Positions 9,001 through 12,000 of a DNA stretch of 47,572 nt are shown here, piece by piece. Position numbers: made by a program. This DNA is from a virus. Lineage: Duplodnaviria > Heunggongvirae > Uroviricota > Caudoviricetes. Location: IMG/VR virus record IMGVR_UViG_651053023_000010, one strand, 5' to 3'. How positions within the stretch are numbered: the stretch's first letter is position 1; each line of letters opens with the position of its first letter.

Positions 9001-12000
9001 ATGATGATGCAGTCCAGGCCGTTTACCGGAAAGCGCATTTCAGCGGCGGTGGGTCGCCCGGCGATTCTGTCGTAGTGCATTGATTGAAATTAATCGTGCC
9101 GGACTGTTTTGTTCGGTATCAGTTAAATGTAACGCTGCGAGCGTTACAAGGTGAAAACAAATGGCTTCAAACTGGATAAAGCTCGAAGTGATTACGCCGG
9201 ATAAGCCGGAAATATTCAGGCTTGCTGAGATTCTGAATATTGATCCAGATGCCGCATTAGGGAAAGTCATTCGCTTCTGGGTATGGGCGGATCAACAAAT
9301 GATAGACGGTAACGCGGAGTGTAACGCTCGCGGCGTTACAAAAAGCGCAATAGATCGCATCACTTTTATGGTTGGTTTTGCTGATGCGTTAATTCAGGTT
9401 GGATGGTTGGTCGAAACTAATGGTGTGTTGTCGCTTCCTAACTTTGAGCGCCATAACGGGAAAAGCTCTAAAAAACGGGCGGTTACAAACGAGCGAGTAA
9501 CAAAAATACGCGAACTGAAACGAAAAGGTAACGCTGGCAGCGTTACACAAACGGATCAAAAAGCGTTACCAGAGGAAGAGGAAGAGGAAGAGGAAGATAT
9601 AAATACTGATCTAACCCATCCCAAACCCTTCCCTTCCGGAAGGGAGTTTCGGGATTTTGTGGCTGGAGTGCTTGAGGGGAGATTGTCTGGCGGTACTGCA
9701 GCAGAATTTTGTAATTCTGCGGTGGCGGCGTTGCAGGCTGCTGGCCTGGATGTCTGTCGTGAGTATCCGGTACCAGAGCGTGGAGACGGCTGCGGAGGGC
9801 GGATTGATATCGTCGTGACTGACAGGAACGGTGTCCGGTGTGGGATCGAACTTGACCGAAATTCTCCACGACAAAAATCATTGCTCAAAATCGGTGCTGT
9901 TGAAACCGGGATATGTGTCTTGCGGCGCAGTGATATCGCAAGGCACACCGAGCAGGGAATTCTGGTTATCGGTGGGGCGGTTCGCCAGAAAAAATTCGAC
10001 CCGTTGTCAGTTGCTCTGCCCGATTGGTTGCCGGAAACACTCTGGCATGAGTGGGTCCAGTTCAGGCAGGCATTGCGAAAACCAATTCGAACGGAGCAGG
10101 GCGCTAACGGGGCGATACGGGAGCTGGAAAAATTCCGCCAGCAGGGTTTTTCACCTGAGCAGGTGATTCGACACAGCATCGCCAATGAATACCAGGGCTT
10201 GTTCGCGCCGAAAGGTGTTCGACCTGAGACGTTACTCCGACAGGTTAACACCGTCTCGTTACCGGATAGTGCGATCCCGCCAGGCTTCAGGGGGTAACTG
10301 ACCATGAAAAATATTGCGACAGGCGGCGTTCTTGAACGTATCCGCAGACTGGCCCCGCCACATGTAACCGCCCCATTCAGAACGGTAGCGGAGTGGCGAG
10401 AGTGGCAACTTGCTGAAGGCCTGAAACGTAGCGAGGAGATCAACCGCCTGAATCGCCAGTTGCGGGTGGAAAAAATTCTGAATCGCTCAGGCATCCAGCC
10501 GTTGCACCGTAAATGCTCGTTTGCGAATTACCAGGTGCAGAACGACGGTCAGCGATACGCGTTGAGCCAGGCGAAATCTATCGCTGATGAACTGATGACC
10601 GGGTGTACAAATTTTGCGTTCAGCGGAAAACCTGGTACCGGAAAAAACCATCTGGCGGCGGCTATCGGGAATCGCCTGCTGAAAGATGGCCAGACCGTGA
10701 TTGTGGTTACCGTGGCTGATGTCATGAGTGCTCTACACGCCAGCTATGACGACGGGCAATCAGGTGAAAAATTTTTGCGGGAACTGTGCGAAGTGGATCT
10801 GCTGGTTCTTGATGAAATTGGCATTCAGCGCGAGACAAAAAACGAGCAGGTGGTGCTGCACCAGATTGTTGATCGCCGGACAGCGTCTATGCGCAGCGTG
10901 GGGATGCTGACAAACCTGAACTATGAGGCCATGAAAACATTGCTCGGCGAGAGGATTATGGATCGCATGACCATGAACGGCGGGCGATGGGTGAATTTTA
11001 ACTGGGAGAGCTGGCGTCCGAATGTTGGTCAGCCAGGAATTGCGAAGTAATTTTTACCGGGAGGAAATTTTAATGGAGACTGTTTTTGACGCACTGAAAG
11101 CAATGGGAAAAGCCACATCCATAGAACTTGCTGCGCGACTTGATATCAGTCGTGAAGAAGTGCTGAACGAACTATGGGAACTGAAAAAGGCTGGTTTTGT
11201 TGATAAAAGCGCGTACACCTGGCGTGTGGCTGATAACAACGTTCAGCAGGAACAGCCAGCGCAGGCAGAACTGCCGGAAGAAACCACCACAGCAACAGTA
11301 GCGAAAATCTCAGAGTGCGATTTAACCGCAACGATTGAACAACGCGGACCACAAACGGCTGATGAGCTGGCTACATTGTTTGGTACCACATCACGCAAAG
11401 TGGCTTCAACGCTGGCAATGGCAATCAGCAAAGGTTGTCTGATTCGCGTAAATCAGGGCGGTAAATTTCGTTACTGCATACCGGGCGATAATTTACCAGC
11501 AGAGCCGAAAGCAGCATCGGTAGCGGAAACTGATGGTAAGGCCTTTCCTCAGCCCGCAGGTGTTGCATTACCAGTACAGGAGGCTGCAACACAGGAAGAT
11601 ATTAAAACAGAAACGGTGGCGGACATTGTGCAGTCGCTGCCATCGTTTACTGAAACGCGAGCGGATGACCTGGTTTTACCATCACTGCATATGGCAAACC
11701 GCGAACTGCGTCGGGCGAAAAATCATGTCCAGAAGTGGGAGCGTGTCTGCGCCGCGCTGCGTGAGTTGAACAAGCACAGGGATATTGTACGACAGATTAC
11801 TGATTCTTCCCGCCATGTTGCATCGGAAAAGTGATTGCCGGAGGCGCTTATGGCAAAAGTATTTACACAAGAAGAGCGGGAAAAAATTAAGGGGAAGGTT
11901 GTTGAGCTCGTGCACCAGAGTGGGCGCGAGACGTTACGACAACTGGAAGCTAAGACAGGTGCGACAAGGTATCTGATGAGTGTTCTTGCCAGAGAGCTGG

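What the first reader, a model, noticed from the sequence alone, without database searches (positions are those of the whole stretch)
9129..9546. Palindromic GTAACGC-N5-GCGTTAC repeats at and inside the O-like replication gene: candidate origin iterons
Four copies of a 19-20-bp near-perfect palindrome occur within about 420 bp, one overlapping the ydaU promoter/ribosome-binding region and three inside its 5' half. In lambdoid phages the origin, with iterons bound by O, lies inside the O gene, so these may be the origin or autoregulatory operators of this replication module.
Basis: seen in the sequence. Interest (0 to 1): 0.5.

Follow-up and report, generated by a model that had tools for sequence, protein, structure and literature searches.

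The report
Phage replication origin inside initiator gene
The palindromes are real and very probably the initiator-binding sites of this prophage's replication origin, laid out like phage lambda's origin but belonging to a large, unstudied initiator family in which the same DNA signals recur in phages of many different bacteria.

Summary
There are three perfect GTAACGC-N5-GCGTTAC palindromes, not four, at 9129, 9321 and 9528. Two perfect lone half-sites lie at 9309 and 9563. The arms are invariant and the 5-bp spacer varies freely in about 170 of 253 distinct homologous phage loci from hosts of 43-65% GC.

Selection acts on the DNA:
- The same palindrome is read in two reading frames and also lies in non-coding DNA.
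- In high-GC phages the elements use otherwise rare codons.
- Divergent initiator subfamilies carry different half-sites, and all copies within a locus agree.

The last half-site abuts a near-invariant polypurine tract (window 9571-9597). Lambda's origin has the same order of parts.

The gene (9161-10297) is not a DUF1376 YdaU. It combines a predicted winged-helix N-domain with no Pfam family, an inserted domain, and a YdaU/O-like C-terminus, and a DnaC-like loader gene follows it.

The origin-iteron reading is strongly supported by comparison and remains untested experimentally. I rate it a new variant of a known kind, of moderate interest.

The parts
9129..9147 (.). Palindrome P1, GTAACGC-TGCGA-GCGTTAC. 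It lies in the non-coding ydaT-initiator spacer and ends two bases before the Shine-Dalgarno-like AGGTGA (9150-9155).
   Evidence: An upstream copy at -32 to -44 is present in most Rac-like relatives, with free spacers. No promoter is predicted here.
9161..10297 (+). Initiator gene, 378 aa. Residues 1-~95 form a predicted winged-helix domain (phrog_2509) and residues 99-147 a disordered linker. Residues 152-276 are an inserted domain (phrog_1347). Residues 277-378 are a YdaU/O-like C-terminal domain.
   Evidence: There is no Pfam or NCBIfam hit for the N-domain. The gene is left unannotated in the identical RefSeq genome.
9309..9315 (+). Lone forward half-site GTAACGC, 12 bp before P2. It is part of a 12-nt insertion relative to other family members that adds four residues (ECNA) to the protein loop.
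   Evidence: The same 12-bp stepping of forward half-sites is seen in relatives.
9321..9339 (.). Palindrome P2, GTAACGC-TCGCG-GCGTTAC. It is encoded in a low-confidence loop (aa 54-60) of the winged-helix domain.
   Evidence: A palindrome at +148/+160 is found in 106 distinct loci.
9528..9546 (.). Palindrome P3, GTAACGC-TGGCA-GCGTTAC. It is the origin-proximal site, encoded in the disordered linker (aa 123-129).
   Evidence: It sits at a fixed distance from the tract in relatives. In the TL-2011b and Klebsiella phage group it is read in a different frame.
9563..9569 (-). Reverse half-site GCGTTAC, abutting the polypurine tract through a single C.
   Evidence: The half-site at this position changes together with the palindrome type across subfamilies.
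9571..9597 (+). Polypurine tract (AGAGGA)4AGA, encoding E8. It is the enterobacterial variant of the family's AGAGAAGAGAAGAGAAGAGAAGA and the candidate unwinding element.
   Evidence: It is the only purine or pyrimidine run of 18 nt or more in the 47.6-kb window. A purine run of 12 nt or more occurs here in 211 of 253 loci, against 2 of 248 control windows. In high-GC hosts it is built from rare codons.
9598..9614 (.). AT-rich stretch TATAAATACTGATCTAA.
   Evidence: The least stable 20-bp duplex within the replication genes is 9595-9614. The 15 nt after the tract are 67% AT, against 45% in controls.
9626..9644 (.). Inverted repeat CCCTTCC-N5-GGAAGGG downstream of the AT-rich stretch.
   Evidence: An inverted repeat lies within 70 nt after the tract in 50 of 102 non-redundant loci, against 31 of 302 control windows.
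10304..11050 (+). ydaV, a DnaC/IstB-like AAA+ helicase-loader gene that follows the initiator gene.
   Evidence: Pfam IstB_IS21 at 4.7e-20 and Bac_DnaA at 1.3e-8. It is annotated ydaV.

Best explanation
The palindromes are binding sites (iterons) for the winged-helix N-terminal domain of the protein encoded by the gene that contains them. Together with the adjacent polypurine and AT-rich tract and a downstream inverted repeat, they form a lambda-type origin of replication.

Shown by sequence comparison:
- The 7-bp half-site GTAACGC is under selection at the DNA level.
- In non-redundant relatives, half-sites sit about one helical turn apart: forward at -55, -43 and -31, and reverse at -19 and -8, relative to the tract. 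In the window they sit at -42, -30 and -7.
- The last half-site directly abuts a near-invariant polypurine tract.
- Half-site sequence changes together with initiator subfamily.

Inferred mechanism:
- Initiator monomers or dimers occupy the half-sites on one face of the helix.
- The resulting complex, possibly helped by the distal clusters P2 and P1 about 200 and 400 bp upstream through looping or raised local concentration, opens the duplex at 9571-9614.
- The C-terminal YdaU/O-like domain then brings in the DnaC-like YdaV with host DnaB.
- Transcription of the ydaS-ydaT-initiator operon runs through the origin, as in lambda.
- The upstream copy P1 may also damp read-through into the gene.
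For: 1. Conservation. The arms are invariant and the spacers free in 73 distinct close or medium relatives. TAACGC-N7-GCGTTA occurs in 170 of 253 distinct loci from Escherichia, Klebsiella, Xanthomonas, Pseudomonas, Ralstonia and metagenomes. In 159 distinct instances the consensus is G-TAACGC-T-nnn-A-GCGTTA-C, with about 0.1-0.4 bit in the three central positions.

2. Selection on DNA rather than protein.
- The palindrome is read in frame 1 as GNAxSVT 240 times, in frame 0 as VTxxALQ 34 times, and lies upstream of the gene 31 times.
- Third-codon-position conservation is 0.88 inside the arms against 0.56 elsewhere.
- In 39 high-GC loci, codons inside the elements differ sharply from the rest of the same genes: AGA 88% against 3%, TTA 81% against 5%, GTT 83% against 24%.

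3. Co-variation. Subfamilies use GTCACGC, GTCCGC, GTAACGG, GTAGACG, GGAACGC or CTAACGC, and all copies in a locus agree. A distal palindrome built from the same half-site that abuts the tract occurs in 51 of 94 non-redundant loci. The permutation control gives a mean of 7 and a maximum of 12. In the GHA/GTCACGC group the left arm changed by Asn to His and the right arm by a synonymous GTT to GTG.

4. Origin anatomy. The polypurine tract is present in 211 of 253 loci against 2 of 248 controls. Half-site positions relative to it are fixed. An AT-rich stretch and an inverted repeat follow it. The least stable duplex in the replication genes is 9595-9614. Lambda, read directly, has four annotated dyad-symmetric iterons followed by AAAAGAAAAAAGAAAAGA and TTATT (architecture described in PMC7466680).

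5. The partner protein. Only the initiator gene is common to loci whose upstream neighbours differ: YdaT, methylases, a KilAC antirepressor, a Roi-like protein. Its N-domain is predicted to be a winged helix. The sites are encoded in low-confidence loop or linker segments.

6. Uniqueness. In the window and in epsilon15 the palindromes occur only in this gene, and the tract is the only long purine run.
Against: - There is no experimental evidence of binding or origin activity for any member of this family. Literature searches found no description of it.
- The three full palindromes in the window are about 200 bp apart, not a tight tandem array as in lambda.
- The tract is only moderately AT-rich, about 40% GC.
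- Xanthomonas phage CP2 has two further perfect palindromes outside the initiator gene, so the protein may have other roles.
- The palindromes can also fold as RNA hairpins.
Confidence: 0.75

Rival explanations
1. The sites bind the initiator but act only as autoregulatory operators or transcription roadblocks. The real origin would lie elsewhere.
For: P1 lies just upstream of the ribosome-binding site. Two sites lie inside the transcribed gene. CP2 has extra sites outside the gene, which suggests a regulatory role.
Against: - No promoter is predicted at P1.
- The fixed junction of the last half-site with a near-invariant polypurine and AT-rich tract plus an inverted repeat is unexplained by simple operators, and it matches lambda's origin layout.
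- TL-2011b-type and many other loci have no upstream copy at all.
Confidence: 0.1
2. The palindromes act as RNA hairpins in the mRNA, or as DNA cruciforms, controlling translation, mRNA stability or pausing rather than being read by a protein.
For: Each palindrome folds as a stable hairpin, at -15 to -16 kcal/mol in context with z-scores of -2.3 to -3.8. The changes between subfamilies are symmetric, so pairing is preserved.
Against: - The arm sequence, not just the pairing, is invariant over about 170 loci.
- All copies in a genome share the same arms: at least 163 loci have two or three concordant copies.
- Many half-sites are unpaired direct repeats at 11-12-bp steps, or lone sites abutting the tract, and cannot form hairpins.
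- No Rfam family matches.
Confidence: 0.04
3. The sites are read by a factor other than the initiator, either a host protein or another phage protein such as YdaS or YdaT.
For: The binding partner has not been shown. The tract is nearly identical across initiator subfamilies and C-terminal domain types, which would fit a shared host factor acting on that part.
Against: - The same half-site occurs in phages of Escherichia, Xanthomonas, Pseudomonas and Ralstonia whose neighbouring genes differ.
- Half-site variants track the initiator N-domain subfamily.
- A host factor would not explain several specificities within enterobacterial phages (GTAACGC against GTCCGC).
Confidence: 0.05
4. The repeats only reflect a repeated amino-acid motif (GNAxSVT) and have no function as DNA.
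For: Two of the three copies encode G/C-N-A-x-x-V-T in the same frame.
Against: - One copy is non-coding.
- Thirty-four copies in relatives are read in another frame as VTxxALQ.
- Synonymous positions are fixed, and rare codons are used in high-GC hosts.
- The motif lies in predicted disordered loops.
Confidence: 0.01

Closest known systems
Phage lambda origin (ori-lambda) and O protein, including Stx-phage origins with six iterons
   Same: - The origin lies inside the initiator gene, in the part that encodes the interdomain linker.
- The iterons are about 19 bp and dyad-symmetric. Lambda's annotated iterons read TCCCTC-N6-GAGGGA.
- The iterons are followed by a polypurine, AT-rich tract and then an inverted repeat (PMC7466680).
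- A helicase-loader gene follows the initiator gene.
- Adding iteron units lengthens the protein. Stx phages gain 13 aa (PMC7466680), and the window has a 12-nt, 4-aa extra half-site unit.
   Different: - The N-domain has no detectable homology to lambda O (hhalign probability 0.2%; no Pfam hit).
- Sites are 7-bp half-sites in mixed orientation at 11-12-bp steps, plus distal palindromes 200-400 bp away, rather than four adjacent iterons.
- The tract, (AGAGA)n or (AGAGGA)n, is almost invariant across phages of unrelated hosts.
Rac prophage origin oriJ and YdaU (DUF1376) of E. coli K-12
   Same: The gene occupies the same position (ydaS-ydaT-initiator-ydaV). Its C-terminal 102 residues are 90% identical to K-12 YdaU. 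Rac is reported to have an active origin, oriJ (PMC3945230).
   Different: The N-terminal domain is unrelated. K-12 ydaU has neither GTAACGC sites nor a polypurine tract. Instead it has three TGTTCAAAC-type repeats in its linker. The two are alternative origin and N-domain cassettes on a shared C-terminus.
SV40 core origin and large T-antigen origin-binding domain
   Same: Short half-sites are arranged as pairs in inverted orientation (PMC1779811 abstract). This resembles the forward-forward-reverse-reverse clusters seen in epsilon15. From memory, the SV40 sites are flanked by an AT tract and a palindrome.
   Different: This is an analogy only. SV40 is a eukaryotic virus with an unrelated initiator that is itself the helicase.
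Bacillus phage SPP1 oriL and G38P (from memory; not checked here)
   Same: The initiator binds repeated boxes next to an AT-rich region located within its own gene.
   Different: The protein family, site sequence and host group all differ.

Membership tests
Lambda-type phage origin (origin inside the initiator gene) | The origin lies inside the initiator gene, in the segment between the DNA-binding domain and the C-terminal domain. | tested here: met
   P3, the 9563 half-site, the tract and the AT-rich stretch are encoded by aa 123-151. This lies between the predicted winged-helix domain and the later domains.
Lambda-type phage origin (origin inside the initiator gene) | Several copies of a dyad-symmetric repeat of about 19 bp (iterons). 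| tested here: met
   The window has three perfect 19-bp palindromes plus two perfect half-sites. They are conserved in relatives.
Lambda-type phage origin (origin inside the initiator gene) | The iterons form a tight tandem array of four or more adjacent copies. | tested here: not met
   Full palindromes in the window are 192 and 207 bp apart. The proximal cluster is a palindrome plus one half-site. Relatives have arrays of up to five half-sites at 11-12-bp steps.
Lambda-type phage origin (origin inside the initiator gene) | An AT-rich or polypurine unwinding region lies directly beside the iterons. | tested here: met
   The tract is at 9571-9597 and the AT-rich stretch at 9598-9614. Lambda's equivalent was read. 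Unwinding itself was not tested.
Lambda-type phage origin (origin inside the initiator gene) | The initiator is homologous to lambda O (Phage_rep_O). | tested here: not met
   There is no Pfam hit even at E<=10. The hhalign probability is 0.2%. Only the C-terminus hits an 'O-like' PHROG (phrog_678).
Lambda-type phage origin (origin inside the initiator gene) | The initiator binds the iterons, and the fragment supports replication. | not testable with these tools
   This needs gel-shift or footprinting and an origin-plasmid assay.
Lambda-type phage origin (origin inside the initiator gene) | A helicase-loader gene lies next to the initiator gene. | tested here: met
   ydaV at 10304-11050 matches IstB/DnaC-like AAA+ families. 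It is not universal in the family: epsilon15 and CP2 lack it.
YdaU / DUF1376 initiator (Rac oriJ type) | An N-terminal DUF1376 domain. | tested here: not met
   There is no Pfam hit. BLASTP against K-12 YdaU aligns only aa 277-378. hhalign shows no relation.
Autoregulatory operator | The site overlaps or flanks the gene's own promoter. | tested here: not met
   No sigma-70-like promoter is predicted between ydaT and the gene. This is a consensus scan only, so it is weak evidence.
Plasmid iteron replicon | The module is carried on plasmids as their replication module. | tested here: not met
   The N-domain is found in only 2 of 72,556 plasmid records, against 59 phage records and more than 550 viral contigs.
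Known structured RNA (Rfam) | A match to a curated covariance model. | tested here: not met
   There are no meaningful matches in 8900-9800 at E<=1.

The most novel reading that the evidence does not exclude
This would be a distinct, widespread class of phage origin across Proteobacteria, defined by a winged-helix initiator domain that has no Pfam family.

- Its unwinding element would be a specific, almost invariant (AGAGA)n polypurine repeat, read sequence-specifically. One possibility is recognition as single-stranded DNA by an initiator oligomer or the helicase-loading machinery, by analogy with the DnaA-trio elements of bacterial oriC (from memory).
- Its cis elements would dictate apparent 'protein motifs' (GNAxSVT, REEKRRED) in the initiator, so that DNA signals write the protein's loop and linker sequence.
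- The distal palindrome clusters would loop to the core.
Probability: 0.3. Interest if true: 0.65.

Novelty: new variant of a known kind. Interest (0 to 1): 0.5.

Why it matters
- **Prevalence.** This origin allele is present in 681 of 5,426 complete E. coli genomes. The initiator family has more than 5,700 members in public data. Neither the N-domain nor its origin is described in Pfam, the PDB or the papers I could search. In the identical RefSeq genome the gene is not even annotated.
- **Testable sites.** The comparison gives precise binding sites, several natural specificity variants for swap experiments, and a candidate unwinding element conserved across hosts of 43-65% GC.
- **Annotation.** Conserved 'protein motifs' can be by-products of overlapping DNA signals, which matters for annotation and for interpreting conservation.
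- **Practical uses.** The elements could mark phage origins in prophage and virome annotation. They could also serve as a compact, possibly broad-host, initiator-dependent replication module.

Tried and rejected
- **Genome-contig scan** with the single N-domain sequence found no relatives. I used viral contigs instead.
I redid it with hits from the protein database.
- **Literature searches** by sequence string and by keyword returned only unrelated primer or satellite hits, or general lambda and Rac papers.
- **Tract type against C-terminal domain.** I tested whether the polypurine tract type tracks the C-terminal domain type, as it would if that domain read the tract. It does not: the AGAGA-type tract occurs with at least four C-terminal types.
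- **Polymorphism among 16 near-identical relatives** was too sparse to be informative. The arms were 5% variable, the spacers 20%, and the tract was misaligned by repeat-number changes.
- **Specificity-determining residues.** Positions 109, 113 and 114 in the basic segment after the wing differ between half-site groups. This is confounded by phylogeny, so I report it only as a lead.
- **Inserted domain (aa 152-276).** Single-sequence AF2 gave pLDDT 52, too low for a fold search. It has no match in the PDB by sequence.
- **The RNA-hairpin, coding-only and other-factor explanations** were considered and downgraded, as set out under rival explanations.
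Full report
**1. The observation**

The window holds three perfect copies of GTAACGC-N5-GCGTTAC, at 9129-9147, 9321-9339 and 9528-9546, spaced 192 and 207 bp apart. With up to three mismatches allowed, no fourth copy appears in the reported interval. The two three-mismatch hits elsewhere in the window are at the level expected by chance.

There are also two perfect lone half-sites, GTAACGC at 9309 and GCGTTAC at 9563, and two degenerate pentamers at 9482 and 9497. The region holds 4 of the 6 GTAACGC and 4 of the 9 GCGTTAC heptamers in the 47.6-kb window. It has ten GTAAC/GTTAC pentamers in 500 bp, against a window mean of one. A pattern with 14 specified bases is expected about 2x10^-4 times in this window, so the repeats are real.

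The first copy is non-coding. It lies between ydaT and the initiator gene and ends two bases before the Shine-Dalgarno-like AGGTGA. No sigma-70-like promoter is predicted there.

**2. The gene**

The ORF at 9161-10297 (378 aa) lies between a ydaS/ydaT-like pair and a DnaC/IstB-like ydaV. The window is identical to a Rac-like prophage of E. coli O139:H1. In that RefSeq genome the stretch equivalent to window 9084-9982 carries no annotation, and only a C-terminal pseudogene fragment is called.

The protein is a mosaic:
- Residues 1-150 match phrog_2509, 'replication initiation protein' (5.7e-84).
- Residues 141-272 match phrog_1347, of unknown function.
- Residues 271-378 match 'primosomal' and 'O-like' PHROGs.

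The protein has no Pfam hit and no meaningful NCBIfam hit.

Against K-12 YdaU (DUF1376), only residues 277-378 align, at 90% identity. Profile comparison finds no relation between the N-domain and either K-12 YdaU or lambda O. So 'ydaU' holds for position and C-terminus only.

**3. Relatives**

tblastn found the N-domain in 59 phage records from Escherichia, Klebsiella, Salmonella, Xanthomonas, Xylella, Pseudomonas, Ralstonia and Vibrio. Four scans of viral contigs each gave 550-600 confirmed relatives, of which I kept about 320 loci. A profile search found 5,729 proteins at E<=1e-5.

In the first ten phage loci the same palindrome appears at +148/+160 of the gene, and usually again at +357 to +368. 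This holds even at 44-48% protein identity and in hosts of 58-64% GC.

Across 73 distinct closer loci the arms are invariant while the five spacer bases vary freely. Over 253 distinct loci, 170 carry TAACGC-N7-GCGTTA. The consensus from 159 distinct instances is G-TAACGC-T-nnn-A-GCGTTA-C, with almost no information in the three central positions.

**4. Is the selection on DNA or on protein?**

The result is clear.
- The palindrome is read in frame 1 as G/S/C-N-A-x-x-V-T 240 times. It is read in frame 0 as V-T-x-x-A-L-Q 34 times, mostly in the TL-2011b and Klebsiella phage group. It lies upstream of the gene 31 times.
- In 31 sequences with less than 90% nucleotide identity, third codon positions inside the arms are conserved at 0.88, against 0.56 elsewhere. 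The other top-ranking third positions are Trp or Met codons, the extra half-site and the tract.
- In 39 loci of at least 58% GC, codons inside the elements differ sharply from the rest of the same genes. AGA is 88% of Arg codons inside against 3% outside, TTA is 81% of Leu against 5%, and GTT is 83% of Val against 24%.
- The encoded residues fall in a low-confidence loop (aa 49-60) and in the disordered linker.

The apparent protein motifs are therefore largely by-products of DNA signals.

**5. Co-variation with the initiator**

More distant subfamilies carry other half-sites with the same 19-bp geometry:
- GTCCGC in the epsilon15 group (54 loci, at +65 and +344).
- GTCACGC in proteins that have GHA in place of GNA.
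- GTAACGG, GTCACA, GGAACGC, GTAGACG and CTAACGC in smaller groups.

Within a locus all copies agree. At least 163 loci have two or three concordant copies.

In the GTCACGC group the left arm changed through Asn to His, while the right arm changed through a synonymous GTT to GTG. That shows the symmetry itself is selected.

The genes upstream of the initiator differ between loci that share the same half-site: YdaT, C5-methylases, a KilAC antirepressor, a Roi-like protein and hypothetical proteins. The initiator is the only constant partner.

**6.

Immediately after the last half-site, separated by C or CT, comes a polypurine tract that is almost invariant at the nucleotide level. It reads AGAGAAGAGAAGAGAAGAGAAGA in phages of Xanthomonas, Pseudomonas, Ralstonia, Salmonella and many metagenomic contigs. 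Enterobacterial Rac-like and TL-2011b-like phages have an (AGAGGA)n variant.

A purine run of at least 12 nt occurs at this position in 211 of 253 loci, against 2 of 248 control windows. In the window (9571-9597), in epsilon15 and in CP2 it is the only purine run of at least 18 nt in the whole sequence.

The half-site that abuts the tract changes with the palindrome type: GCGTTACC, GCGTGACC, GCGGACC, CCGTTACC, CGTCTACC and GCGTTCCC, each followed by AGAG. A distal palindrome built from the same hexamer is present in 51 of 94 non-redundant loci. When half-sites of another type are assigned instead, the mean is 7 and the maximum 12.

In 52 non-redundant GTAACGC-type loci the half-sites sit at fixed offsets from the tract. 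Forward sites are at -55, -43 and -31, and reverse sites at -19 and -8, so the steps are 11-12 bp. The window has forward at -42 and reverse at -30 and -7. Epsilon15 has two forward-forward-reverse-reverse clusters 279 bp apart, the second abutting the tract.

After the tract, the next 15 nt are 67% AT against 45% in controls. An inverted repeat lies within 70 nt in 50 of 102 non-redundant loci, against 31 of 302 control windows. In the window these are TATAAATACTGATCTAA (9598-9614) and CCCTTCC-N5-GGAAGGG (9626-9644). The least stable 20-bp duplex within the replication genes is 9595-9614.

**7. Comparison with lambda**

I read the lambda record directly. It has four annotated dyad-symmetric iterons inside gene O. 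About 20 bp after the last one comes AAAAGAAAAAAGAAAAGA followed by TTATT, and then an inverted repeat.

The accepted architecture and mechanism are summarised in PMC7466680. O binds the iterons to form the O-some. The AT-rich tract is needed for unwinding. The two iterons nearest the tract plus the tract form the minimal unwinding unit. Extra iterons in Stx phages add residues to O.

The element studied here has the same order of parts and the same placement in the linker-coding region of the initiator gene, and in the window a helicase-loader gene follows.

It differs in four ways:
- The N-domain is unrelated to lambda O.
- The sites are 7-bp half-sites in mixed orientation.
- Additional palindrome clusters lie 200-400 bp upstream.
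- The tract sequence is conserved across very different hosts.

**8. Mechanism, and what is shown versus inferred**

Shown by comparison:
- The cis elements are under DNA-level selection.
- Their geometry is fixed.
- They co-vary with the initiator subfamily.
- A low-stability segment lies next to them.

Inferred:
- The winged-helix domain binds the half-sites. A basic segment after the wing may contribute, since positions 109, 113 and 114 differ between half-site groups (confounded by phylogeny).
- The resulting complex opens the tract and AT-rich region.
- The C-terminal domain recruits YdaV-DnaB.
- The distal clusters stabilise the complex or raise the local concentration of initiator.
- P1 may also damp read-through from the upstream operon.

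The tract type does not follow the C-terminal domain type. What reads the tract, if anything does so sequence-specifically, is open.

**9. Rivals**

- Coding-only repeats are excluded (section 4).
- RNA hairpins can form. They do not explain invariant arm sequence, concordance of copies within a genome, or unpaired direct half-site arrays, and no Rfam family matches.
- A different binding factor is unlikely, because the neighbouring genes and the hosts vary.
- A purely regulatory role cannot be excluded for P1 and P2. CP2's two extra palindromes outside the gene hint at additional functions. Even so, this does not explain the core junction with the tract.

**10. Novelty and verdict**

An origin inside a phage initiator gene is textbook. 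This particular initiator and origin family appears undescribed in the searchable literature and databases.

It is common. The allele occurs in 681 of 5,426 complete E. coli genomes. It is almost absent from plasmids, with 2 of 72,556 records.

I rate it a new variant of a known kind and of moderate interest (0.5). My confidence that these are initiator-binding sites of the origin is about 0.75.

Noticed in passing
window 9614-9988 (aa 152-276 of the initiator): This is an in-frame segment of about 125 aa (phrog_1347, function unknown) directly after the origin core. It is absent from a 95%-identical ydaU of 'phage Rac' strain 442/2, where 11 other residues take its place. The identical RefSeq genome leaves the gene unannotated apart from a C-terminal 'pseudogene'. 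There is no Pfam or PDB match, and single-sequence AF2 gave only pLDDT 52 (helix-helix-four strands).
   Followed up: partly
L328 (E. coli K-12 Rac, ydaU) 1711-1777: K-12 ydaU (DUF1376 type) has three copies of a TGTTCAAAC / GTTTGAACA repeat in the linker-coding region. That is the position equivalent to the origin core here. They are candidate iterons of oriJ, on an alternative N-domain and origin cassette that shares the same C-terminus.
   Followed up: no
L330 (Xanthomonas phage CP2) 5976 and 34142-34172: CP2 has two further perfect GTAACGC-N5-GCGTTAC palindromes outside the initiator gene. One is at the end of the spanin gene. The other, with an extra GCGTTAC 12 bp on, is in the leftward early region. 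This suggests the initiator may have additional regulatory or secondary-origin sites in some phages. The window and epsilon15 have none.
   Followed up: partly
L042, L043, L044, L049 (viral contigs), equivalent to window 9470-9475: Several prophage copies of the gene are frameshifted in the A-run that encodes KSSKKR. They still keep all three palindromes intact.
   Followed up: no
L329 (epsilon15) 35233-35279 and 35512-35547: Epsilon15 has two forward-forward-reverse-reverse clusters of GTCCGC half-sites 279 bp apart. The first is at a different place in the protein (aa 20-28) from the GNAxSVT loop used by the main family. The distal cluster has therefore been placed independently in different subfamilies. 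The heavily curated epsilon15 record annotates repressor, IHF, RNase III and integrase sites but no origin.
   Followed up: partly
window 8307-8325: A perfect 7-N5-7 palindrome, TTATGAATACAGTTCATAA, lies between the divergent repressor-like gene (7833-8297, minus strand) and the cro/ydaS-like gene. It is a candidate immunity operator.
   Followed up: no
window 12584-14030: Just downstream of the replication and DUF1627/DUF977 genes there is a gene pair annotated in RefSeq as an ATP-binding protein and a STAS-like domain protein. It may be an accessory or defence cargo module.
   Followed up: no
viral-contig loci L088, L089, L152, L165, L184, L199, L244, L151, L155, L158, L283: These loci carry natural specificity variants of the half-site: GTAACGG, GTCACGC, GTAGACG, GGAACGC and CTAACGC. 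Each has matching proximal and distal copies, which makes them ready-made material for swap experiments.
   Followed up: partly
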